Source of the DNA: Candidatus Woesearchaeota archaeon
GTDB taxonomy: Archaea > Nanobdellota > Nanobdellia > Woesearchaeales > UBA9642
Length of the DNA stretch: 64,000 bases
Assembly (NCBI GenBank): GCA_016928115.1
Contig: JAFGLI010000019.1
Span: 5,066-69,065 of the forward strand
Direction: 5' to 3'
Under the pieces are notes generated by a model that was not told the origin of the DNA, ran no database searches, and saw nothing but the letters and a program-made list of their open reading frames with translations. The position numbers and the translations under genes are program-made. Of the stretch, positions 411 to 62,159 are shown piece after piece (position 1 is the first letter of the stretch; each line of letters begins with the position of its first letter).

Positions 411-3400
411 ATGGGTTTTTCATTAAAGCCTGTTTTAACAGGAAAACATTTAAAAACCAAAACTGTTTTTTATTTCCTTATGGTAGATTTCAGAAAGACA
501 GAAAAAAAATGGCAGGATAAATGGGATAAGAAGAAATTATTTCAGGTTAAGAAAGACAAAAACAAAAAAAAGTACTATGTTCTCGTAATGTTCCCCTACC
601 CATCAGGCTCCGGACTGCACATGGGTCATGCATTTAATTATATTGTGGGAGACATAATAGCAAGATACAAAAAAATGCAGGGCTTTAATGTTCTGCATCC
701 TATGGGATATGACTCTTTAGGGTTACCTGCAGAAAATGCAGCCATTAAGCAAAAAGAGCATCCGGGGAAATACTCAGAAAAGGCTATTAAAAATTTTATG
801 GACCAGCAGAAATCCTTAGGTATAAGCTATGACTGGTCAAGAACTGTTGAGACTCATTCTCCTGAATACTATAAATGGGACCAGTGGATTTTCCTCAAGA
901 TGCTTGAAAAAGGCCTTGCTTATCAGAAAGAGTCTTCAGTAAACTGGTGCCCTGAATGCAAAACAGTATTGGCAAATGAGCAGGTTCATGACGGAAAATG
1001 CTGGAGGCATGAAGACACAAATGTTGAGATAAAACAACTAAAGCAATGGTTCTTAAGGATAACTGATTATGCTGATGAATTATATGAAAGTATTGACTCA
1101 TTGAAAGGGTGGCCTGAAAGGACAAAAGCAATGCAGAAGAACTGGATTGGAAAAAGCCACGGAACTGAGATTGATTTTGAGATTGAAAATCCAAATAAGA
1201 AAAAAGAAATTAGTAATGTTGTAATTATTCATGGTTCTCCTCATAGTAAAAAACGAGCAAAAGAAGAACCTCAAAATAAGGCTCATTGGATTTCATGGTT
1301 GAAAAAAGAATTAGAAAAACAAGAGATAAAAGTATACAATCCTTTAATGCCTAATTGTTGGAAACCAAAATATGAAGAATGGAAAAAAGAATTTGAAAAA
1401 ATTAACATTAATGAAGATAGTGTTTTAATTGGACATAGTGCAGGAGGAGCTTTTGTGGTTAGATGGTTAAAGGAAACCGGGAAAAAAATTAATAAATTAA
1501 TTTTAATATCTGCAGGGAAAACAACAACTAAGGAAAATAAAAGATTGCATAAATTTTACAGTTTTAATATTGGTGATAAAATCAAAAATAATGTGAAGGA
1601 AACTATTATTTTTATCTCAGATGACGAACCAGATTATAGGAAGAAAAATGCCATAGAATATGAAAAAAAATTAAATGGAAAATTAATCAGTTTGAAAAAC
1701 AGAGGACATTTCACTCTAAAAGGAATGAAAACAAAAGAATTCCCAGAACTTCTTGATGAAATTATTTCAAAAACAAAATTCCCAATATTCACAACACGCC
1801 CCGATACAATCTATGGAGTAACATTTATGGTTATATCTGCACAGCATCCAAAACTTGTTGATTTGATTACAAAAGAGCAGGAAAAAGAAGTTAAAGAATT
1901 CCTTAAAAAGCTTAAATCAGTAAGTGAAAAGGAAATGGAGGATATGGAAAAGGAAGGCGTCTTTACAGGCTCGTTCGCTGTCAATCCAATGACAAATGAA
2001 AAGATTCCTGTTTATGCAGGAAATTTTGTCCTTGCTGATTATGGCTCAGGAATGGTTATGGCTGTGCCTGCCCATGACCAAAGGGATTTTGAATTCGCCA
2101 AAAAATACAATATTCCTGTAAAGATAGTAATACAGCCTGATGCCTATGACATAAATCCTGAAAAAATGTCAAGGGCTTATACTGGAAACGGCAGAATGGT
2201 AAATTCAGGGGAATTCAATAATCTACCTAATAATATTGCAATTGATGAAATCACCAAATACCTGATTAAGAAAAAATCAGGAAGAAAAACAATACAGTAT
2301 AAACTAAAAGACTGGTGCATATCAAGACAAAGATATTGGGGAACTCCCATACCAGTAATATACTGTGATAAATGCGGGATTGTTCCTGTAGCTGAAAAAG
2401 ACCTGCCTGTTAAGCTGCCTGAAAAAGTGAAATTCGGAAAAGGCAATCCTCTTGAAACAAATAAGGATTTTGTGAATGTAAAATGCCCCAGATGCAAAGG
2501 CAATGCAAAAAGGGAAACTGACACAATGGACACTTTTGTAAATTCATCATGGTATTTCTTAAGATACTGCGACCCTGAAAATAATAAAAAGATATTTGAT
2601 AAAGAAAAGGCAAAATACTGGATGCCTGTTGACCAATACATAGGCGGGGCAGAGCATGCATGCATGCACCTTATTTATTTCAGGTTTTACAACAAATTCC
2701 TGAGGGACATTGGCCTTGTTGATGTAGATGAGCCTGCAGTTAATCTGTTCCACCAGGGAATGCTTCATGGTCCGGATGGAAAGGTTATGTCCAAAAGCAG
2801 GGGCAATGTTGTGCTGCCGAAAGAGGTTTCTGAAAAATACGGCATAGATACAGCAAGATTGTTTCTTGTCTCAATAGGCTCTCCTGACAAAGACAGGGAA
2901 TGGAATGAAAAAGGAATCCGGAGCAGCCTTAAGTTCATTGAGAAAGTGTATGATTTTGTAAAAAAATTTAAAGAAAATAAGTCATCACCAATTATTGAAT
3001 CAAAGCTGCATAAAGCCATAAAGACTGTCAGCCAGGATATAGAGAATTTCAGGTATAATCTTGCTGTAATAAAGCTGAGGAAATTATTTGAGGGCATTTG
3101 CGATGAAAAAAACATTACTAAAAAAGACCTTGAAATCTTCCTGAAAATGCTTGCGCCTTTCTGCCCGCATATATGCGAGGAATTATGGGAAAAACTTGGC
3201 AATAAAGGATTTATTTCAGAAGCAAAATGGCCCGGATATGATGATAAGAAAATAAATGAAAAAGCCCTGTACTCTGAGGAGCTTGTTGATAATGTAAGGA
3301 AAGATATTCTTGAGATTATCGGGCTGATTGGAAAAGATGAGAAAGGCATCTCAGAAATTACAATCTATATTGCAGATGAATGGAAATACGGATTATATAA

Positions 3401-3692
3401 AGAGATAAAAAAAGCTATGGAAAAGACACAGGACATAAACGAGATAATGAAAGCAGTGATGAAGACAGAATTCAGGAAATATGGGAAGTATATATCCAAA
3501 AACATGAAGACCATGGTTAACCAGATGCCCTCTATGGTAACTTCAGCAAAAGAGGAGAAAAAAGTGCTTGAAAATTCAGCTGAAAAAATCACTGACTTTA
3601 AATGCAGTGTTATTATAAAGTATGAAAAGGAAGCAGGCGAAAAAGCAAACAAAAGGGCACTGCCCGGGAAGCCTGCAATTGTCATTGAATAA
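411..3692 (+). CDS. leuS: Leucyl-tRNA synthetase, bacterial-type, with an inserted alpha/beta-hydrolase domain. An alternative start at 480 (MVDFRKTEKKWQDKW) matches canonical LeuRS N-termini.
   Basis: HMGH (HIGH-class) motif 'PYPSGSGLHMGHAFNY', 'GYDSLGLPAEN', 'TTRPDT' entry to the CP1 editing domain, 'AVPAHDQRDFEFAKKY', KMSKS as 'VMSKSRGNVV', and a C-terminal anticodon-binding region. About 190 aa are inserted between 'IDFEIEN' and 'TTRPDT'. Confidence 0.9.
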   Translation: MGFSLKPVLTGKHLKTKTVFYFLMVDFRKTEKKWQDKWDKKKLFQVKKDKNKKKYYVLVMFPYPSGSGLHMGHAFNYIVGDIIARYKKMQGFNVLHPMGYDSLGLPAENAAIKQKEHPGKYSEKAIKNFMDQQKSLGISYDWSRTVETHSPEYYKWDQWIFLKMLEKGLAYQKESSVNWCPECKTVLANEQVHDGKCWRHEDTNVEIKQLKQWFLRITDYADELYESIDSLKGWPERTKAMQKNWIGKSHGTEIDFEIENPNKKKEISNVVIIHGSPHSKKRAKEEPQNKAHWISWLKKELEKQEIKVYNPLMPNCWKPKYEEWKKEFEKININEDSVLIGHSAGGAFVVRWLKETGKKINKLILISAGKTTTKENKRLHKFYSFNIGDKIKNNVKETIIFISDDEPDYRKKNAIEYEKKLNGKLISLKNRGHFTLKGMKTKEFPELLDEIISKTKFPIFTTRPDTIYGVTFMVISAQHPKLVDLITKEQEKEVKEFLKKLKSVSEKEMEDMEKEGVFTGSFAVNPMTNEKIPVYAGNFVLADYGSGMVMAVPAHDQRDFEFAKKYNIPVKIVIQPDAYDINPEKMSRAYTGNGRMVNSGEFNNLPNNIAIDEITKYLIKKKSGRKTIQYKLKDWCISRQRYWGTPIPVIYCDKCGIVPVAEKDLPVKLPEKVKFGKGNPLETNKDFVNVKCPRCKGNAKRETDTMDTFVNSSWYFLRYCDPENNKKIFDKEKAKYWMPVDQYIGGAEHACMHLIYFRFYNKFLRDIGLVDVDEPAVNLFHQGMLHGPDGKVMSKSRGNVVLPKEVSEKYGIDTARLFLVSIGSPDKDREWNEKGIRSSLKFIEKVYDFVKKFKENKSSPIIESKLHKAIKTVSQDIENFRYNLAVIKLRKLFEGICDEKNITKKDLEIFLKMLAPFCPHICEELWEKLGNKGFISEAKWPGYDDKKINEKALYSEELVDNVRKDILEIIGLIGKDEKGISEITIYIADEWKYGLYKEIKKAMEKTQDINEIMKAVMKTEFRKYGKYISKNMKTMVNQMPSMVTSAKEEKKVLENSAEKITDFKCSVIIKYEKEAGEKANKRALPGKPAIVIE

Positions 3693-3757: not shown

Positions 3758-4216
3758 ATGAACAAAAAGGGGATATCTCCGTTAATAGCTACTGTACTTC
3801 TGATTTCATTCAGCGTAGCCCTGGGAACAATGGTCATGAGCATAGGCAGGCAGGTTGCAGACACCAGTGGAGAATGCGAAGGGGTTATTCTTGAAATACA
3901 GCAGCTTAATAAAAAAGCAGTCTTGTGCTATGATACTATTGAATCATCCATAAATGTAATCCTGAAAAATATAGGGAGCACTGAAGTCAATGGGATAAAA
4001 ATGAGGGTTATTGACATTGATGAAGAAATAAACGAAGTAAACATATCAAACTCAAAGATACTGGTTGGGGGAATATTCAAAAAAAACATACCCTACAGCA
4101 ACGGAATGGGGGTTTATGTTGAGTTTATACCTTCTGTTATGAAAGAAAGCGGAGAAATAATATACTGCCCCGGGAAAAGCGTTTCAATGGACGGAGTGCC
4201 TGTATGTTCGGCCTGA
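3758..4216 (+). CDS. Archaeal type IV pilin-like protein with a class III signal peptide
   Basis: N-terminus MNKKGISPLIATVLLISFSVALG matches the archaeal prepilin signal (K-G-I/Q-S cleavage site followed by a hydrophobic helix). Confidence 0.7.
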   Translation: MNKKGISPLIATVLLISFSVALGTMVMSIGRQVADTSGECEGVILEIQQLNKKAVLCYDTIESSINVILKNIGSTEVNGIKMRVIDIDEEINEVNISNSKILVGGIFKKNIPYSNGMGVYVEFIPSVMKESGEIIYCPGKSVSMDGVPVCSA

Positions 4217-4226
4217 GAATATAAAA

Positions 4227-5261
4227 TTACTCATAAAAAAATTCTTTTAGATGTGGGTTTTCTTTTTTTAATATCTTCAATGATTTATATCTAAGCTGAT
4301 TTGCCCTTTCTCTTGAGATGTTAAATAATATTCCTATTTCTTCCAGAGTGTGTTGATTTTTCCCGTTTAAACCATAATAAAACTCAAGAATCTTTCTGTC
4401 TCTTCCATTATATTCTCCTCTTGATTCCAGTTTATCAAGGGCTTTTGAAAGTTCATCATGAAGCCTTTTTTTCCTGTAATCATCTTCAGGCATACTTTCT
4501 TCAACAGGAATAAGCTCGCTCCTTTCATCTCCTTCTTCATTAAAGGGGGATGATTCATCGAGTGAAACAAATTCTGTGAATGCCGCTTTCAGGGTATATT
4601 TGCTGTATCTTAAATCAAGCATTTCATTGATCTCATCAAGAGTGGGCTTATAGCCATACTTATTTATAAACTTCTTCTCTGCTTTTTTAACTAAACTTAT
4701 AGAATATGAAAGATTAGCAGGCATCCTGATTGTTCCAATCATTTCAGATATGTGCCTGTAAATACCTGATTTTAACCAAAAATCAGCATATGAAATAAAT
4801 TTTATCTCCTTGTATTTATTCTTATCCCTGAATTCTTTACAGTAATACTTTTCTGCAGCTGTTAAAACCTTCTCTAATCCTGCCTGTATCAAGTCTTCCT
4901 CCTGCAAGGACTCGTCTGGATTGAATTTGAAATAAATATCTCTTGCTGATTTTATGAAAAAAGGAATATTGCGGCTTACGAGTATGTTCTTTGATAATGC
5001 CTTTATATATTCTTTTGGAACATTTCCGTTTTCTGCTTTTTCCTCAAGTCCGATTTTTTCAAGAACTGAAAGCCCGGGGATTTTTTTAATGGCTGTTTTA
5101 AGATTAGTATATCTTCCAGGATTATCCCTTATGTAAGCTAACTTAATTTCCTCTTTTGGCTCCAATAGCTTCACATCTTTAAGATTGCCGTCCTTGAAAT
5201 CCTTAGGAACTAAAATATTTGATACCATTTTTATATAATCTTTACTATTAAAAAGTAACAA
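4227..5261 (-). CDS. Sigma-70 family RNA polymerase sigma factor homologue
   Basis: Region 2 'EEDLIQAGLEKVLTAAEKY...IKFISYADFWLKSGIYRHISEMIGTIRMPANL' resembles DLIQEGNIGLMKAVEKF...FSTYATWWIRQAITRAI...IRIP. Region 3 'KPTLDEINEML'. Region 4.2 'TLEEIGILFNISRERANQLRYKSLKILKK' resembles TLEEVG..F.VTRERIRQIE.KALRKLR. It has no TFB-like zinc ribbon or cyclin folds. Confidence 0.75.
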   Translation of the reverse strand: MLLFNSKDYIKMVSNILVPKDFKDGNLKDVKLLEPKEEIKLAYIRDNPGRYTNLKTAIKKIPGLSVLEKIGLEEKAENGNVPKEYIKALSKNILVSRNIPFFIKSARDIYFKFNPDESLQEEDLIQAGLEKVLTAAEKYYCKEFRDKNKYKEIKFISYADFWLKSGIYRHISEMIGTIRMPANLSYSISLVKKAEKKFINKYGYKPTLDEINEMLDLRYSKYTLKAAFTEFVSLDESSPFNEEGDERSELIPVEESMPEDDYRKKRLHDELSKALDKLESRGEYNGRDRKILEFYYGLNGKNQHTLEEIGILFNISRERANQLRYKSLKILKKENPHLKEFFYE

Positions 5262-5333: not shown

Positions 5334-6131
5334 ATGAGAATAAAACTAAAATTTACAAAATCTCTGGAGGAAAACGCATCATATTATTTTGAAAAGTCTA
5401 AAAGGGCAAAACAGAAATTAGAGAAAACCAAGAAAGCAGTGAGGGATACAAAGAAAAAGCTGGAAAATGCAGAGAAGATTACGAGTGAAGAGATAAAAGA
5501 GGAAAAGAAGAAAAAGAAACTGAAGAAAGTCATAAAAAAGAAAAAATGGTACCAGAATTTCAGGTGGTTCATGTCATCAGACGGCTTTCTTGTTGTGGGT
5601 GGAAGGGATGCAACATCAAATGAGATTATTGTAAAGAAGCATGCATCCGGAAATGACATTGTATTTCATACACAAATGGCAGGAAGCCCTTTTGTTGTAA
5701 TAAAAAATCCTTTAAATAAAGACATTCCTGATTCCACAATACAGCAGGCTGCTGATTTCTGTGTAAGCTTCAGCAGGGCATTTGACGAGGGACTGCAGAC
5801 TTCAGAGGTCTATTATGTAAAGCCCGAGCAGCTTTCCAGGAAAACCAAAGCAGGAGAATATATGGGAAAAGGCGCATTCATGGTATACGGCAAGAGAAAC
5901 TACACAGAAGGGAGGCTTAATGTTGCTGTTGGAAATTACAATGGAACCACTATGTCCGGGCCTGTTGAGGCAGTTGAAAAACACTGCAAAAAATATGTCG
6001 TCCTTAAAAAAGGAAAAGAGAAAAAAAGCGAGCTTGCAAAGAAGATAAGGCATTTATTGGAATTAGATGACCTGGATGAAATAATAAGGTTTATACCAAA
6101 AGAGGCTGAGATTGAAGAAGTAAAAAAATAA
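5334..6131 (+). CDS. C-terminal half of an NFACT/Rqc2-FbpA family protein, with a coiled coil and the NFACT-R/DUF814 domain
   Basis: Lys/Glu-rich coiled coil, then 'WYQNFRWFMSSDGFLVVGGRDATSNEIIVKKHASGNDIVFHTQMAGSPFVV...EVYYVKPEQLSRKTKAGEYMGKGAFMVYGKRNY', typical of DUF814. Confidence 0.7.
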   Translation: MRIKLKFTKSLEENASYYFEKSKRAKQKLEKTKKAVRDTKKKLENAEKITSEEIKEEKKKKKLKKVIKKKKWYQNFRWFMSSDGFLVVGGRDATSNEIIVKKHASGNDIVFHTQMAGSPFVVIKNPLNKDIPDSTIQQAADFCVSFSRAFDEGLQTSEVYYVKPEQLSRKTKAGEYMGKGAFMVYGKRNYTEGRLNVAVGNYNGTTMSGPVEAVEKHCKKYVVLKKGKEKKSELAKKIRHLLELDDLDEIIRFIPKEAEIEEVKK

Positions 6132-14561: not shown

Positions 14562-15164
14562 ATGGGGAAAGATATAAAAAAGAGATTTAAAAAAAAATTT
14601 AAGAATTTCATGAAGAATTATGGCACTGTCCTTCTTGCTATCGCTACTCTTATTATGGCATTAGGAGTATTTTACCAAGCTGAAGAAGCTAGAAGATTAG
14701 CAGATATAACTTCTCAACAATTCAGACCTGATTTAATGATTAAAATAAATAGTCCTAAAATTCCTATGGTTTGTGGAATAAATAATAGTGAATGTAAAAA
14801 AGCAGATTATATATGGATTCAAAAAAATGATTTTGTTAAATTTAAAGAAACTTTTACGAATGATGTTTTTATTCCTTTATATATATCTATTTACAATTTA
14901 GGTACTATGCCTGTTAAGTTTGAAAAACTATCTTATGATTTAGAATGTAAAAAGTATGTGAACCACAGAGATAAGATTAGTTTACTTTCAAATATAACCA
15001 CTGTAATCGAATCTGCAAAATTCATAGAGTTTAATAAACTTATACCTTTAATTTATAAAGAAGGGTCTAGAGAAAAAGAGGAAGACTGTAATTTAAAACT
15101 TATATTTGAATTTAGTAAAAATCTCACTAAAACAAAAACAATTTTAGTTAAAATTGGGGAATAA
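14562..15164 (+). CDS. Hypothetical membrane-anchored protein
   Basis: Basic N-terminus followed by one TM helix (VLLAIATLIMALGVFY); no recognisable domain. Confidence 0.4.
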   Translation: MGKDIKKRFKKKFKNFMKNYGTVLLAIATLIMALGVFYQAEEARRLADITSQQFRPDLMIKINSPKIPMVCGINNSECKKADYIWIQKNDFVKFKETFTNDVFIPLYISIYNLGTMPVKFEKLSYDLECKKYVNHRDKISLLSNITTVIESAKFIEFNKLIPLIYKEGSREKEEDCNLKLIFEFSKNLTKTKTILVKIGE

Positions 15165-15218
15165 AATATTTATTTAGAAACTTTTTTATATAAATTCCAT
15201 TTTTATTAAAAAAATAAG

Positions 15219-15767
15219 GTGTGTTGTATGGAAATAAAACATTTGATAATTATTAGTTTGATTATAATATCATTATTTTTATCTTTGCCAGTAATAGTTA
15301 AAACAAGAGATATTGTAACTTTTAATTCAGAAGGAATTCGTCTCACAAAAAAAGAAAGCATTTATGGAGACAGAAATTACTGTGAATATGATAAATGCTC
15401 AGATCCTAAATGTTTAGATCCTGAAGATCTACCAAAAGATTTACAAGATTATAAAATTTGTTTCTGTTGTATTGCATTTGAATATGAAGGAAAAGATAAT
15501 GGAAAAAAAATATGGGAAGTAGAAGAATATAGATTAAAAATTTTTTATATAGAAGATGAAAAAGAAAAAGAAAAACCTTTTTTCATTTCTGATATATCAA
15601 CAAAAATTTCATTACCTAATAAAGAAAATGTAAAAATTTCAATTGATAAAAGTTATACAAAGCCATATTATTATAAAGAAAACTATCCTGACGAATTGAA
15701 AATATATTTTGAAAGAATAAGAATTAACTATCGAGCTTTATTGAGTTGGATTACTTCAAAAACATAA
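15219..15767 (+). CDS. Hypothetical secreted or membrane-anchored Cys-rich protein
   Basis: Signal/TM segment IIISLIIISLFLSLPVIV; several Cys pairs (CEYDKCSDPKC, CFCC). Confidence 0.4.
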   Translation: MCCMEIKHLIIISLIIISLFLSLPVIVKTRDIVTFNSEGIRLTKKESIYGDRNYCEYDKCSDPKCLDPEDLPKDLQDYKICFCCIAFEYEGKDNGKKIWEVEEYRLKIFYIEDEKEKEKPFFISDISTKISLPNKENVKISIDKSYTKPYYYKENYPDELKIYFERIRINYRALLSWITSKT

Positions 15768-16229
15768 TTATAACTTCTTGCTTTTAATTTTAGATTTAAC
15801 AGATTCTCTGAACTTACAAAAATCATTCCAGATTTTATTGAAACCAATTTCTTGAATTTTTTCATAAGCCATAACAACTTCCTTTGGAGCATCTTTTGTA
15901 AAATGTGCTATGGTATTATCCCTGAGTTCCTTAATATATTTCCATGAGTCTGGGTATTCAATTGTGTCTTCAAATTTTTTATATGCAATCCAGTAAAAAT
16001 TCCTTATATCTAAAATAAAAAAGTCCATGAGGGGTTCAGAAGGTCTAATACCTCTTTCTTTGATTACTGATTTGTAAGATGGATCAAGTTCTTCAGGATG
16101 ATTATCAATAATTTTTGCAAATTGTTTCAAAAAAAAGAGTCTTCTAATAATACACTCAAATGGGAACCATTCATCATATTCTCTATTTCTTAGATCTTGC
16201 AAATATTTCTTCTTTTTTTCTTCATCCAT
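15768..16229 (-). CDS. Hypothetical protein containing an Rx5H motif (possibly HEPN-like)
   Basis: 153 aa, soluble; 'ELRDNTIAHFTKD' fits the HEPN Rx4-6H signature; immediately downstream of a 2-TM protein on the same strand. Confidence 0.35.
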   Translation of the reverse strand: MDEEKKKKYLQDLRNREYDEWFPFECIIRRLFFLKQFAKIIDNHPEELDPSYKSVIKERGIRPSEPLMDFFILDIRNFYWIAYKKFEDTIEYPDSWKYIKELRDNTIAHFTKDAPKEVVMAYEKIQEIGFNKIWNDFCKFRESVKSKIKSKKL

Positions 16230-16252
16230 AAAAAATAATCACCTAACTCAAT

Positions 16253-16555
16253 CTATTTTTTATACTTCATAACTAAATAAGTTATAACAACAGAAAAAAT
16301 AATTAAGATAATCAAACTTAAGTTCAGATATGTTAATCCTACTCTTGCATAATGAGATATATAATGGTCTTCTAATTGATCAATTCCCATAGAAACTCTT
16401 ACATTTCCAAAATAAAGAAATGCTAATCCCCAAGGTAAAATAAACATTGCCCAAAAGAATGCTGTTGTTTTAAATATCTTTTTAATTATATTAGTCATTT
16501 TATTCCTGATTAGATTAAATAATATAAATAATTTATGAAATTGGGATTTTTTCAT
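16253..16555 (-). CDS. Small 2-TM membrane protein
   Basis: Two hydrophobic helices; co-oriented with 15768..16229. Confidence 0.35.
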   Translation of the reverse strand: MKKSQFHKLFILFNLIRNKMTNIIKKIFKTTAFFWAMFILPWGLAFLYFGNVRVSMGIDQLEDHYISHYARVGLTYLNLSLIILIIFSVVITYLVMKYKK

Positions 16556-16587
16556 AAATTTTTTAAATAATCTTTATTTACCCCCTT

Positions 16588-17160
16588 ATGGGGGTTGATA
16601 ATATGAAAAAAATAATGTTTTTAATTTTTATTCTTGCTATTTTATTAATTAGTGGGTGTGCTTCACCTACATACACAAAAGATAATTCTCAAGAAACAAG
16701 CAACCAACAAACAAATACTCAAGAAGAAATAGAACCTAAAGAAAAAGAAATCACTTATATAAGCCTATTGTGGCCCATATCTAAAAACTGGGATTCAGAT
16801 CCGGAAGTAGATGGTATAGAAATAGATTTAACACCATATACAAAAAATGATGAAATGGTTGAAACAGAAGGAATAGTTGAAGTAAAACTATGGGAATATA
16901 CCTGTACTGATTATTCAGAAATGCTTGAAATGTGTATAGAAAAGGATTGTGTTAAATCTGAAGATGCCCTATTAGAAGAATGGAATGTTCCTCTAAAGAA
17001 AGAGGATTTTGATTTTATGGGTGCTACTATAAGAGCAGAATATGAAAAATATGATCCTACAGAAGACGAAAGAAATTATCCACAGGGGTGTATACTAGTA
17101 ACATTAAAAGCCCAGGATAAAGAGTTTTCAGCAGAGGAAGATTCAGTAAGTTTGAAATAA
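16588..17160 (+). CDS. Putative lipoprotein (acidic)
   Basis: Signal peptide ending in the lipobox-like LISGCAS; highly acidic mature region. Confidence 0.5.
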   Translation: MGVDNMKKIMFLIFILAILLISGCASPTYTKDNSQETSNQQTNTQEEIEPKEKEITYISLLWPISKNWDSDPEVDGIEIDLTPYTKNDEMVETEGIVEVKLWEYTCTDYSEMLEMCIEKDCVKSEDALLEEWNVPLKKEDFDFMGATIRAEYEKYDPTEDERNYPQGCILVTLKAQDKEFSAEEDSVSLK

Positions 17161-17196
17161 ATTAATCGTTTTTATCGGGGTCATGAATATCAGAAA

Positions 17197-17409
17197 ATGA
17201 CAAAATGGGAATATAAATTAGTAGATGTAGGAAAAACTCAAGGGGCTGAGACTTTAGATTTTGTAAGCCTGAAGGAAAGCTTGTTAAATGAATATGGAAA
17301 AGAAGGATGGGAATTAATAAACATTATAGGTAAGGACCCAGCTTTTTTTGAATATGTACCACCAGCAGGAAAAGTAGTTTTAGTATTTAAGAGAAAAATT
17401 GAAGAATGA
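17197..17409 (+). CDS. DUF4177-like small protein
   Basis: 'MTKWEYKLVDVG...EYGKEGWELINI' matches the DUF4177 signature (WEYK...G.EGWELV). Confidence 0.5.
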   Translation: MTKWEYKLVDVGKTQGAETLDFVSLKESLLNEYGKEGWELINIIGKDPAFFEYVPPAGKVVLVFKRKIEE

Positions 17410-17438
17410 TATATAATTTCATAATATACTAATCAAAA

Positions 17439-18251
17439 ATGCAAAAGAAACTAAATAAATTTAAACAATGGTTCAAAGAAAACCAGGCTTCTTTTATAAT
17501 AATTATTACTTGCGCTTTATTATTGTTGTGGGTATTTTTCAAAAACTCAAAATATTTTGATTTATTGAAGGATATTTTTATTTTTATTCCTAAGATTAAA
17601 ATAGTTATATCGATTGTGGGTGTATTAATAATTTTCTTTATTTTATATTATATATATAAATATACATATAATAAAACTAAAAACGAACAAAAACCGAACT
17701 CCGAAAAAAACTTCCTGTCCATATTAATATTTCTTATTTGTTTAGGTTTACTTATATCTGATTTAAAGATTCCAGACCTTGGAACATTCCTTATTACTAA
17801 TTGGGGAAAAGTTTTTATTTTCATTTCTGTTTTTATATTCTTGTCTTATAGACTATTAAGACTTTGGGGAAATAAAAATAATTGGGATATATCTTATTCA
17901 AAGATAGGTATAATGATTATAATCTTAGTTTTTGCTTTCTGGTTAATTCAGCACGGTAGTGGGATAGAACCTAACTTGAAATATAAAGAAATATCCGACA
18001 AAACTTTTAAGCCAATAGTTGATGAAAGTAGACAATCTAAAAAAGATATTTATATAGGCATAGGCATATCTCTTTTTGCTTCTGCTATAATTTTATTATC
18101 TCAATATTTCTTTAAAGCTTGGAAAGAAGAAGAGAATAATAAAGAAATAAAAAATAAGATTGAAGAAATTGAAAAAAATATTAAAAAAATTAGTAAATAT
18201 ATTGAAACGAAAACTAAAAAGAAAAAATCTCCTTCTAAAAAATCTAAATAA
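17439..18251 (+). CDS. Hypothetical polytopic membrane protein with a Lys-rich C-terminal tail
   Basis: Five or six TM helices, then a coiled-coil/K-rich C-terminus. Confidence 0.4.
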   Translation: MQKKLNKFKQWFKENQASFIIIITCALLLLWVFFKNSKYFDLLKDIFIFIPKIKIVISIVGVLIIFFILYYIYKYTYNKTKNEQKPNSEKNFLSILIFLICLGLLISDLKIPDLGTFLITNWGKVFIFISVFIFLSYRLLRLWGNKNNWDISYSKIGIMIIILVFAFWLIQHGSGIEPNLKYKEISDKTFKPIVDESRQSKKDIYIGIGISLFASAIILLSQYFFKAWKEEENNKEIKNKIEEIEKNIKKISKYIETKTKKKKSPSKKSK

Positions 18252-61037: not shown

Positions 61038-62159
61038 ATGAAAAACCAGATAAGTTCTCTTGAACTGAATTATTTGACAAGGGAGTTAAAAACACTTGTT
61101 AATTCAAAACTGAATAAGGTTTACAGCAAAAAAAACAGTTTTGTTTTTGACTTCCATAAAACCAGTAAAGGAAGATTAATGTTAAAGGTTGAGCTTCCGG
61201 GAAAAATATACCTCACAAAATACAAGGAAGAATATGAAGAGCCCGGTAATTTCTGCATGTTCCTGAGAAAACATTTAGCCAACAGTTTTGTCAGGGATAT
61301 TTATACAAAGGATTTTGAGAGAATCCTGATAATTGAGTTTAAAACAAAAGAAAAAAAACTAAAACTCATATTTGAACTGTTCAGCAAAGGCAATATTGTT
61401 CTGGTTGATGATAAAGGCATTATAAAAAATATATACAGGAAAGAGGAATGGAAAGATAGAATATTAAAGCCAAAGGAAAAATACAAATTCCCTCCTTCGG
61501 GCATTAACATAATCAATATGGATATGAATGAGTTCAGGATAAAAATCATGAAAAGCAATAAGGATTTAGTAAGGACCCTGGCTGTAAAATTTTCACTCGG
61601 AGGGCTTTACAGTGAAGAAGTTTGTGTAAGGACTAAAACTAAAAAAGGAATTAATACAAGCATACTGAAAAAAAATGAACTGTTAAAACTATATAAAACA
61701 ATAAAATCAATGCTTAACAGCAAAGAAGACCCCACGGCTTATTTTGAAGATGGAAAATTAAAAGAGATAACACCTTTTGAATTAAGAATGTTCCAAAATC
61801 TTGAAAAGAAAAAATACAGCTCATTTAATGAATCCCTTGATGAAAGCCTTTCAATAATGGCTGAAGAAAAGAATGAAGAGGAAATAATAAAGACCAAAAA
61901 GGGAAAGGTAGAAAAATTAAAAGAGATTATTGAAAAACAAAAAGAGGACATAAATAAAAGGTTAAATATTATTGATGAAAACTCAAAAAAAGGGGAGATA
62001 TTATACAAAAACTACAATATGCTTAAGCAATTACTGGATGATTTCAGAAAGATACAAAAAGAGCATTCATGGGAAGAGATTAAAGAAAAACTTAAAAACC
62101 ATAAAATCATAAAGGAAATAAATGAAAAAGAAGGGTACATAATTGTTGATGTAAAATAA
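61038..62159 (+). CDS. N-terminal half of an NFACT/Rqc2-FbpA family protein (NFACT-N plus HhH plus coiled coil)
   Basis: 'FCMFLRKHLANSFVRDIYTKDFERILIIEF...LIFELFSKGNIVLVDDKG' is the NFACT-N signature; it ends in a coiled coil with no DUF814 domain. Confidence 0.7.
   Translation: MKNQISSLELNYLTRELKTLVNSKLNKVYSKKNSFVFDFHKTSKGRLMLKVELPGKIYLTKYKEEYEEPGNFCMFLRKHLANSFVRDIYTKDFERILIIEFKTKEKKLKLIFELFSKGNIVLVDDKGIIKNIYRKEEWKDRILKPKEKYKFPPSGINIINMDMNEFRIKIMKSNKDLVRTLAVKFSLGGLYSEEVCVRTKTKKGINTSILKKNELLKLYKTIKSMLNSKEDPTAYFEDGKLKEITPFELRMFQNLEKKKYSSFNESLDESLSIMAEEKNEEEIIKTKKGKVEKLKEIIEKQKEDINKRLNIIDENSKKGEILYKNYNMLKQLLDDFRKIQKEHSWEEIKEKLKNHKIIKEINEKEGYIIVDVK

What the first reader, a model, noticed from the sequence alone, without database searches (positions are those of the whole stretch)
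1191..1776. Complete serine-hydrolase (YdeN/RBBP9-like alpha/beta-hydrolase) domain inserted in-frame into a bacterial-type LeuRS just upstream of the CP1 editing domain
Canonical bacterial LeuRS has only about 7 residues between the '...GxEIxF' strand and the 'TTRPDT' entry to the CP1 editing domain; this ORF has about 190. The inserted segment carries an oxyanion-hole region 'VVIIHGSPHS', a nucleophile elbow 'LIGHSAGG', an acid 'FISDDEPD' and a His in 'NRGHFT'. That is a full Ser-Asp-His triad laid out like the YdeN/RBBP9 serine hydrolase family. The CP1 editing domain itself is retained downstream (AVPAHDQRDFEFAKKY), as are the HMGH (HIGH-class) and KMSKS (VMSKS) motifs, so the synthetase looks functional. 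A catalytically competent esterase grafted next to the editing site could act as an extra deacylase or proofreading module, for example hydrolysing mischarged aa-tRNA or aa-AMP. I do not recall this architecture being described. The synthetase is also bacterial-type (GYDSLGLPAE, TTRPDT) inside a clearly archaeal gene neighbourhood, which implies horizontal acquisition.
Basis: partly seen in the sequence, partly recalled or inferred. Interest (0 to 1): 0.85.

Follow-up and report, generated by a model that had tools for sequence, protein, structure and literature searches.

The report
Serine hydrolase nested inside leucyl-tRNA synthetase
A complete, apparently active small serine hydrolase sits in a surface loop of this archaeon's leucyl-tRNA synthetase; the same pairing recurs across ultra-small archaea and some bacteria and is swapped between genes, which points to an undescribed partnership whose purpose is unknown.

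Summary
Window 1185-1775 encodes a whole YdeN/RBBP9-type (PF06821) alpha/beta serine hydrolase nested in frame in the first beta-hairpin of the CP1 editing domain of LeuRS (gene 480..3692; NCBI MBN1377370.1, Woesearchaeota). Catalytic Ser, His, an acidic residue and the HG motif are conserved. The model is confident (pLDDT 94.5) and matches YdeN and RBBP9 (TM about 0.8). LeuRS synthetic and editing motifs are intact.

It is not unique. 94 of the 120 closest LeuRS carry the domain at three different sites, and so do genuine CPR bacterial LeuRS. In other archaea it is a separate gene abutting leuS. 28 of 37 archaeal-labelled hydrolase loci are linked to leuS.

Insert and host histories are decoupled: hosts 95% identical carry inserts 51% identical. 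A sister locus 86% identical lacks the insert entirely. The same domain is also nested in ValRS, UvrB, Der and a glycosyltransferase, and the LeuRS loops also host NUDIX and other modules.

Best reading: an independently folding aminoacyl ester/amide hydrolase tethered to LeuRS, functionally coupled to it but dispensable and horizontally exchanged. An extra-proofreading role is plausible but unproven. The LeuRS is chimeric (bacterial core, archaeal C-terminal domain). I found no publication.

The parts
480..3692 (+). leuS gene: chimeric LeuRS (bacterial-type catalytic core and CP1, archaeal-type C-terminal domain), 1070 aa. The ORF is open from 411.
   Evidence: full-length AF2 model pLDDT 88.0, pTM 0.77, best PDB matches are bacterial LeuRS (2bte TMt 0.77, 4aq7 TMt 0.79)
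618..629 (+). HMGH (HIGH-class) motif of the synthetic site
   Evidence: H, G, H invariant in 120 relatives
1161..1184 (+). first strand of the host hairpin (GTEIDFEI), left flank of the insertion (site A)
   Evidence: (strand E225-236 in the model)
1185..1775 (+). inserted segment (591 nt) absent from the syntenic sister locus L001; GC3 0.173 against 0.371 for the rest of the gene
1209..1769 (+). PF06821 YdeN/RBBP9-like alpha/beta hydrolase domain. It covers positions 2-188 of the roughly 190-aa free-standing protein profile.
   Evidence: pLDDT 94.5, pTM 0.92; 1uxo TM 0.80/0.83; RBBP9 about 0.78-0.84
1230..1235 (+).
   Evidence: H 99-100%, G 99-100% in nested and free copies. The oxyanion-hole role is assumed from the alpha/beta-hydrolase fold, not tested here.
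1437..1439 (+). nucleophile Ser in GHSAG
   Evidence: Ser in 94/95 nested and 76/76 free copies; aligns with RBBP9 Ser75
1626..1628 (+). probable triad acid (Glu of SDDE)
   Evidence: D/E in 91/95 nested and 76/76 free copies; lines up with RBBP9 Asp138 after a one-residue shift of the HMMER alignment
1707..1709 (+). triad His in RGHFT
   Evidence: His in 93/95 nested and 76/76 free copies; aligns with RBBP9 His165
1776..1808 (+). second strand of the host hairpin (KFPIF) followed by TTRPDT, the threonine-rich entry to the CP1 editing pocket
   Evidence: T, T, R, D, T invariant in all 94 insert-bearing relatives and invariant or nearly so (D in 25 of 26) in the 26 insert-free ones
1770..2264 (+). 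CP1 editing domain (Pfam tRNA-synt_1_2), including AHDQRD at 2070-2087
2784..2798 (+). VMSKS (KMSKS-class) motif
3150..3689 (+). archaeal-type C-terminal tRNA-binding domain
   Evidence: 31% identity, E 2e-21, aligned to the last residue of an archaeal-type LeuRS; archaeal models match to their end, the bacterial model stops at 781/843

Best explanation
Window 1185-1775 encodes a whole-protein-sized, catalytically intact YdeN/RBBP9-family serine hydrolase. It is nested at the tip of the first beta-hairpin of the LeuRS CP1 editing domain, and its C-terminal junction lies five residues before TTRPDT. It folds as an independent domain on very short linkers and leaves the synthetic site and the canonical CP1 editing site intact.

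It is one instance of a recurrent, horizontally exchanged partnership between this hydrolase and LeuRS in DPANN archaea and some CPR bacteria.

The most likely mode of action is a tethered hydrolase of alpha-aminoacyl esters or amides with a free amino group. It would act, in cis or in trans, on a LeuRS-related small substrate: an aminoacyl ester such as the 3' end of (mis)acylated tRNA, or an aminoacyl-nucleoside/nucleotide by-product or mimic. It is an accessory clean-up module, not a part needed for aminoacylation.

Shown: the anatomy, fold, triad conservation, distribution, linkage to leuS, and exchange between genes. Inferred: the substrate class (from RBBP9 biochemistry) and any link to proofreading.
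For: Domain identity and integrity: PF06821 at 51-56 bits. PDB sequence hits to RBBP9 and YdeN. AF2 pLDDT 94.5 and Foldseek TM about 0.8 to 1uxo, 2qs9 and 7oex. The nested copy spans profile positions 2-188 of the free protein. Ser, His, the acid and the HG motif are 96-100% conserved in 95 nested and 76 free copies.

Host intact: HIGH, KMSKS, TTRxDT and HDxRD are invariant or nearly so in LeuRS both with and without the insert. The full-length model has pLDDT 88 and pTM 0.77 and matches bacterial LeuRS structures.

Coupling to LeuRS: 94 of 120 nearest LeuRS clusters carry the domain, at site A (89), site B inside CP1 (5) or site C after KMSKS (1). Genuine bacterial LeuRS of CPR carry it at A or B. 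In species-level genomes, 28 of 37 archaeal-labelled hydrolase loci are nested in or abut leuS. That includes separate genes overlapping the leuS stop by 4 nt (L002, L009, L025), one 16 nt upstream (L027) and one next to an archaeal-type leuS (L074). A ValRS fragment hosts two copies.

[quoted passage not shown] It was reported as a valacyclovir (L-valyl ester) hydrolase by Shenoy et al. 2020, known to me only from the reference list of PMC7730578.
Against: The same domain is nested in UvrB, Der/EngA and a GT2 glycosyltransferase. It is end-fused to NUDIX, Ham1, YdjC and a receiver domain. So LeuRS is the favourite host but not the only one.

The same LeuRS loops host NUDIX, a HAD-like module and an unrecognised module in relatives, which suggests permissive loops.

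The syntenic sister gene lacks the insert with no other visible change, and only 1 of 6 insert-free leuS loci examined has an adjacent free copy. So the module is dispensable.

In CPR most copies are free and unlinked to leuS.

The RBBP9 residue that binds the substrate amine (Glu108) aligns with Lys here, and the cap region is variable, so substrate specificity cannot be transferred.

No geometry could be measured between the hydrolase site and the CP1 pocket.
Confidence: 0.5

Rival explanations
1. Passenger or selfish cassette. The hydrolase is a small house-cleaning enzyme whose job has nothing to do with LeuRS. Its coding segment lodges in frame in permissive surface loops of housekeeping genes, where only precise deletion can remove it, and it spreads between alleles by recombination. 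LeuRS CP1 is simply the most tolerant landing site.
For: Non-LeuRS hosts UvrB, Der, GT2 and ValRS. Other cargo in the same LeuRS loops. Presence/absence between hosts whose LeuRS bodies are 86% identical. Host and insert distances uncorrelated (Pearson 0.03, Mantel p 0.26), with host pairs 95% identical carrying inserts 51% identical and the reverse. Insert GC3 below host GC3 in 25 of 31 loci, and 0.173 against 0.371 here. Recurrent NUDIX neighbour and NUDIX/Ham1 fusions suggest a house-cleaning guild.
Against: Free-standing genes abutting leuS on either side, some with 4-nt overlaps, are not explained by loop permissiveness. At least three independent sites in LeuRS, against one observed case each for the other hosts. 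28 of 37 archaeal loci are leuS-linked. No endonuclease, intein blocks, terminal repeats or target duplication. No viral copies found. The triad is under strong conservation, so the enzyme is used.
Confidence: 0.3
2. Resistance module. The tethered hydrolase destroys natural aminoacyl-nucleotide mimics that target LeuRS (of the agrocin-84/TM84 or aminoacyl-sulfamoyl-adenosine kind). This would explain its patchy, horizontally exchanged, fast-turning-over distribution.
For: Exchange and diversity pattern typical of conflict genes. The family's chemistry on aminoacyl derivatives of nucleoside analogues. LeuRS-targeting natural mimics exist (PDB 3zgz TM84 complex and the 5ah5 AgnB2 LeuRS appear; that AgnB2 is the producer's self-immunity enzyme is from my own knowledge).
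Against: No match to any PADLOC defence model, and only weak esterase matches in PHROGs. No such inhibitor is known for DPANN or CPR habitats. Does not explain the UvrB, Der and GT2 hosts.
Confidence: 0.1
3. Substrate supply. The domain works as an aminopeptidase that frees leucine from scavenged peptides right next to the synthetase in these auxotrophic organisms.
For: RBBP9 is an aminopeptidase for hydrophobic N-terminal residues and forms Leu/Ile adducts. DPANN and CPR organisms depend on scavenged building blocks (general knowledge).
Against: Free leucine diffuses, so tethering gives little advantage. Three insertion sites and operon forms show that geometry is not critical. Nothing specific to leucine is seen in the variable cap region.
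Confidence: 0.06
4. Replacement of a dead CP1 editing site, an intein-like splicing element, or an assembly or frameshift artefact.
For: None beyond the unusual length of the gene.
Against: CP1 editing residues are invariant or nearly so with or without the insert. No Hint, intein or homing-endonuclease Pfam match, and the hydrolase fills the whole insert. The architecture occurs in more than 90 independent protein clusters and in complete genomes such as CP061211.1.
Confidence: 0.02

Closest known systems
RBBP9 (human) and YdeN (B. subtilis), Pfam PF06821 Ser_hydrolase
   Same: Same fold (TM about 0.8), same size (about 190 aa), same Ser-His-acid triad layout. 22-27% identity.
   Different: Those are free-standing proteins. 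Here the domain is nested inside another enzyme. The RBBP9 amine-binding Glu108 and pocket residue Tyr99 are not conserved. The natural substrate is unknown.
Chimeric LeuRS of Halobacteria (NmLeuRS1/2; Fang et al. 2014, PMC4005665)
   Same: Bacterial-type N-terminal region (Rossmann fold, CP1) combined with an archaeal-type C-terminal tRNA-binding domain.
   Different: No hydrolase insertion is reported there. The present enzyme belongs to DPANN archaea. Its relationship to the haloarchaeal clade was not tested.
aaRS with appended or inserted catalytic modules, e.g. CP1 itself, INS of ProRS, AlaX/ThrRS-N2 editing domains, 'ileS_w_GNAT' (NCBIfam NF040702)
   Same: A synthetase polypeptide carrying an extra hydrolytic or transferase domain. 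NF040702 appears in the list as a named IleRS-plus-acetyltransferase family.
   Different: None of these is an alpha/beta serine hydrolase nested in the editing domain. Known editing domains are vertically inherited parts of their synthetase, whereas this module is swapped, lost and shared with unrelated hosts.
Inteins and homing elements in housekeeping genes
   Same: In-frame insertion in conserved housekeeping genes, patchy distribution, exchange with flanking co-converted sequence, and composition differing from the host.
   Different: No splicing domain, no endonuclease, and no Cys/Ser/Thr...His-Asn junction residues. The insert is an enzyme that must stay in the mature protein.

Membership tests
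PF06821 Ser_hydrolase (YdeN/RBBP9 family) | Score above the Pfam gathering threshold | tested here: met
   51.2 bits (whole ORF) and 55.8 bits (insert alone) against a cut-off of 22
PF06821 Ser_hydrolase (YdeN/RBBP9 family) | Compact alpha/beta-hydrolase fold superposable on YdeN and RBBP9 | tested here: met
   AF2 pLDDT 94.5; Foldseek 1uxo TM 0.80/0.83, 2qs9/7oex/9fcr TM 0.78-0.84, E 6e-12 to 1e-9
PF06821 Ser_hydrolase (YdeN/RBBP9 family) | GxSxG nucleophile Ser, catalytic His and acid in the family positions | tested here: met
   GHSAG Ser aligns with RBBP9 S75 and GH with H165. The acid column is D/E in 167 of 171 copies.
PF06821 Ser_hydrolase (YdeN/RBBP9 family) | Hydrolase activity on aminoacyl amides or esters with a free alpha-amine (RBBP9) | not testable with these tools
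   Biochemistry is needed. The RBBP9 Glu108 equivalent is Lys in the alignment.
Bacterial-type LeuRS (TIGR00396) | Score above the curated cut-off, with CP1 inserted after the zinc-binding module as in bacteria | tested here: met
   933 bits against 548; best structural matches are T. thermophilus, N. gonorrhoeae and E. coli LeuRS
Bacterial-type LeuRS (TIGR00396) | Bacterial-type C-terminal domain | tested here: not met
   The model match stops at 781/843. The last 180 aa align to the end of an archaeal-type LeuRS, E 2e-21.
Functional LeuRS with CP1 post-transfer editing | HIGH and KMSKS motifs; Thr-rich TTRPDT and the HDxRD aspartates of the editing pocket | tested here: met
   All present, and invariant or nearly so in 120 relatives. 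Activity itself was not tested.
Intein | Hint splicing blocks, N-terminal Cys/Ser/Thr, C-terminal His-Asn followed by Cys/Ser/Thr | tested here: not met
   No Hint, intein or LAGLIDADG match at E <= 1. The hydrolase occupies the whole insert. The junctions read ...EIENPNKKKEISN and ...IISKTKFPIF.
Transposon-like insertion | Terminal inverted repeats and/or target-site duplication at the junctions | tested here: not met
   Only short AT-rich chance matches, none bracketing 1185/1775
Known anti-phage defence proteins (PADLOC) | Match to a defence-system model | tested here: not met
   No match for the insert or the whole protein

The most novel reading that the evidence does not exclude
The LeuRS-hydrolase pairing is a previously unrecognised, horizontally traded accessory activity of class-Ia synthetases in ultra-small archaea and bacteria. 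It would be a second hydrolytic site, chemically unlike CP1, that removes aminoacyl esters or aminoacyl-nucleotide mimics that CP1 cannot handle. That makes it either a new layer of translational quality control or a resistance function. It is carried on a non-splicing, intein-like domain cassette that moves between alleles by gene conversion.
Probability: 0.2. Interest if true: 0.85.

Novelty: new variant of a known kind. Interest (0 to 1): 0.68.

Why it matters
Synthetase editing domains are textbook examples of ancient, vertically inherited quality-control modules. Here a different kind of hydrolase has been placed in or next to LeuRS many times: at three sites, in two domains of life, and as an operon partner. 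It is exchanged between genes much faster than the host gene diverges.

If the hydrolase acts on aminoacyl esters, it would be a new proofreading or detoxifying activity in organisms with minimal genomes. It would also give the poorly understood RBBP9/YdeN family a natural substrate context.

If it is a passenger, it is a clear natural case of whole-enzyme domain insertion behaving like a mobile element without splicing or an endonuclease. That would be useful both for understanding protein evolution in CPR and DPANN organisms and as a map of permissive insertion sites in LeuRS.

Tried and rejected
- **Searching with the insert alone** returned only free-standing proteins. This wrongly suggested that the fusion was unique. 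The word-index limit was the cause, and the full-length search corrected it.
- **Low GC3 as proof of recent acquisition:** rejected as a specific argument. The hydrolase segment has lower GC3 than its host in 25 of 31 loci, and the window contains other low-GC3 genes.
- **Complementary distribution** (insert-free leuS always next to a free hydrolase): not found. It held for 1 of 6 loci, and the 188-aa neighbour in L086 is not a hydrolase.
- **Conserved neighbours of free copies in CPR:** none apart from NUDIX in 4 loci, plus L019 by eye only.
- **L062/L042 'aaRS nearby':** L062 is a ValRS about 2.7 kb away with unrelated genes between, and L042 was not pursued.
- **Viral carriage:** none found.
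- **Defence-family membership:** none.
- **Terminal repeats or target duplications:** none.
- **Co-conversion tract in the window against L001:** none. Identity is flat at 80-90% up to both junctions, so gain versus loss here is unresolved.
- **NJ trees** were used only descriptively, without support values.
- **Nine literature searches** found no description of the architecture. The library lacks most subscription journals.
Full report
**1. What is in the window**

The + strand carries an ORF open from 411 to 3692. The protein starting at 480 (1070 aa) is an exact match to NCBI MBN1377370.1, 'leucine--tRNA ligase [Candidatus Woesearchaeota archaeon]', on a 74-kb contig. Other genes of the window are archaeal in character: GatD, CDC48, an RFC-like AAA+ protein, archaeal-type phosphoglycerate mutase and a split NFACT.

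Pfam finds the class-I synthetase core, the LeuRS editing domain, the anticodon-binding domain and PF06821 Ser_hydrolase (51 bits in the ORF, 56 bits for 1191-1776 alone, cut-off 22). NCBIfam gives leuS_bact at 933 bits.

**2. The insert is a whole enzyme**

- A profile built from 76 free-standing relatives matches the nested copy over positions 2-188 of about 190.
- With an alignment of 37 sequences, AlphaFold2 gives pLDDT 94.5 and pTM 0.92.
- Foldseek places it with B. subtilis YdeN (1uxo, TM 0.80/0.83) and human RBBP9 (2qs9, 7oex, 9fcr; TM 0.78-0.84). It is far ahead of other alpha/beta hydrolases.
- Across 95 nested and 76 free copies, the HG after strand 1, the GHS nucleophile and the GH histidine are 96-100% conserved.
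- The invariant acidic column is the fourth residue of S-D-D-E, here Glu (1626-1628). This corresponds to RBBP9 Asp138.
- There is no intein, Hint or endonuclease signal, and no terminal repeats or target duplication.

**3. The host is intact and chimeric**

HIGH, KMSKS, TTRxDT and HDxRD are invariant or nearly so in 94 insert-bearing and 26 insert-free relatives. The hydrolase therefore does not replace a degenerate editing site.

The full-length model (pLDDT 88.0, pTM 0.77) shows the two host strands (225-236 and 432-438) flanking the insert with very short linkers. It matches bacterial LeuRS structures.

The last 180 residues align to the very end of an archaeal-type LeuRS (E 2e-21), and the bacterial model stops at 781/843. 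The enzyme is thus a chimera of bacterial core and archaeal CTD, as described for Halobacteria (PMC4005665).

**4. It is widespread and recurrent**

The insert-only search misleadingly returned only free proteins of about 190 aa from Pacearchaeota and Patescibacteria. The full-length search showed that 94 of the 120 best LeuRS clusters carry the domain.

Mapping against the insert-free relative P0091 shows three sites:

| Site | Position | Number of cases |
|---|---|---|
| A | the hairpin before TTRPDT (the finding's site) | 89 |
| B | a loop inside CP1 | 5 |
| C | after KMSKS | 1 (P0179) |

P0179 has copies at both A and C plus NUDIX at B.

Genuine bacterial LeuRS of CPR also carry the domain at A or B. 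These have a bacterial CTD and ParAB/Noc neighbours.

Among 80 hydrolase loci from species-representative genomes:

| Label | Loci | Linked to leuS | Clearly unlinked |
|---|---|---|---|
| Archaeal | 37 | 28 (20 nested, 5 directly downstream, 2 upstream, 1 next to an archaeal-type leuS) | 4 |
| CPR | 30 | 3 (all nested) | 16 |

- The remaining loci in each row (5 archaeal, 11 CPR) had flanks too short to judge.
- Three downstream cases (L002, L009, L025) overlap the leuS stop codon by 4 nt. L002 is a further locus, found separately from this 80-locus scan.
- A further 13 loci with doubtful taxonomic labels include 2 nested at site B.

**5. It is dispensable and exchanged**

The syntenic locus L001 encodes a LeuRS whose body is 86% identical to the window's. 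The DNA is 80-90% identical right up to both junctions, but L001 lacks the 591-nt segment.

The insert's GC3 is 0.173 against 0.371 for the rest of the gene. That puts it in the lowest 1.5% of same-sized windows from the other genes. A lower GC3 than the host holds in 25 of 31 loci.

Across 87 site-A carriers, host and insert distances are uncorrelated (Pearson 0.03, Mantel p 0.26). Examples:

| Pair | Host identity | Insert identity |
|---|---|---|
| P0124/P0126 | 95% | 51% |
| P0167/P0164 | 94% | 50% |
| P0195/P0148 | 65% | 88% |

Sliding identity shows mosaic tracts made of the insert with or without adjacent CP1. This is recombinational cassette exchange between leuS alleles. No viral copies were found.

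**6. It is not exclusive to LeuRS**

An exhaustive search of 1.84 billion representatives finds only 1,571 relatives. Among the longer ones, about half are LeuRS. The domain is also nested in ValRS (two copies), UvrB, Der/EngA and a GT2 glycosyltransferase. It is end-fused to NUDIX, Ham1, YdjC and a receiver domain.

The LeuRS loops also host NUDIX, a HAD-like module and an unrecognised module. In CPR the only recurrent neighbour of the free gene is NUDIX.

**7. Mechanism**

- **Shown:** an intact hydrolase under purifying selection is tethered to an intact LeuRS, with strong and repeated physical linkage to leuS in DPANN.
- **From the literature:** RBBP9 forms acyl-enzyme adducts with single hydrophobic amino acids including Leu/Ile, requires a free alpha-amine, and is thought to cleave amide, ester or thioester bonds (PMC8866121). 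It was reported to hydrolyse the L-valyl ester valacyclovir (Shenoy 2020, seen only in a reference list).
- **Inferred:** the module hydrolyses aminoacyl esters or amides related to LeuRS chemistry, as an accessory clean-up activity. I give this about 0.5.
- **Rivals:** the main rival is a passenger cassette in permissive loops, at about 0.3. A resistance function and a leucine-supply function are minor rivals.
- **Limits:** substrate specificity cannot be transferred, because the RBBP9 amine-binding Glu and pocket residues are not conserved. The geometry relative to the CP1 pocket could not be measured.

**8. Novelty**

The parts are known families. Their nested combination, its recurrence and its exchange dynamics are not described in any paper I could find, although the sequences sit in public databases labelled simply as leucine--tRNA ligase. 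I rate it a new variant of a known kind (synthetases with accessory catalytic domains), with interest 0.68.

Noticed in passing
window 4227..5261 (-): A 344-aa protein with a Sigma-70 region 4 domain (PF04545, 31.9 bits) in an archaeal genome. It is conserved beside leuS in the sister locus L001 (13173-14174).
   Followed up: partly
window 5334..6131 (+) and 61038..62159 (+): NFACT appears split into two distant genes: NFACT-R_1 (113.8 bits) near leuS and NFACT_N (154.3 bits) 55 kb away.
   Followed up: no
window 14562..18251: A run of small genes with very low GC3 (0.11-0.21, against a window mean of 0.345). Possibly a foreign island.
   Followed up: no
window 3758..4216 (+): A 152-aa ORF directly downstream of leuS. 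By eye, its N-terminus (MNKKGISPLIATVLLISFSVALG) looks like an archaeal class III (pilin-like) signal peptide. It has no Pfam match and is conserved in L001.
   Followed up: no
relatives P0114, P0130, P0133, P0149, P0162, P0193, P0201 (site B); P0186, P0200 (site A); P0105, P0153 (unknown module): The same LeuRS loops carry other cargo. These are a NUDIX domain (about 55 bits), a weak HAD-like module (below the Pfam cut-off), and an unrecognised module of about 110 aa found at either site.
   Followed up: partly
P0179 (1379 aa); P0328 (1169 aa): LeuRS with several insertions. P0179 has the hydrolase at sites A and C plus NUDIX at B. P0328 has two tandem hydrolase copies at A.
   Followed up: partly
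P0229, P0245, P0223, P0235: The same hydrolase domain is nested inside UvrB (between UvrB_inter and Helicase_C), Der/EngA (between the two G domains), a GT2 glycosyltransferase and a ValRS fragment (two tandem copies).
   Followed up: partly
L074 5989-6558 and 6696-9521: A hydrolase gene lies directly upstream of an archaeal-type leuS (TIGR00395, 845 bits). It has a TGA at the conserved Trp of 'RWL', so it is a pseudogene, a sequencing error or a recoded codon.
   Followed up: partly
L002 358-759; L088 1469-2938: HIT-family hydrolase genes lie 1-3 kb upstream of insert-free leuS in two loci. From general knowledge, HIT enzymes act on aminoacyl-adenylates.
   Followed up: no
L043, L051, L053, L084 (and possibly L019): In CPR genomes the free-standing hydrolase gene recurrently sits next to a NUDIX hydrolase gene. 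L019 was judged by eye from its sequence only. P0249 is a direct hydrolase-NUDIX fusion, and P0320 and P0343 are hydrolase-Ham1 fusions.
   Followed up: partly
L009, L010, L025, L064 (also L002): In these loci, where the hydrolase is a separate gene directly downstream, the leuS is of a shorter type (818-832 aa) than the 870-880 aa insert-free type. In L065, the fifth downstream case, the leuS ORF is 859 aa.
   Followed up: no
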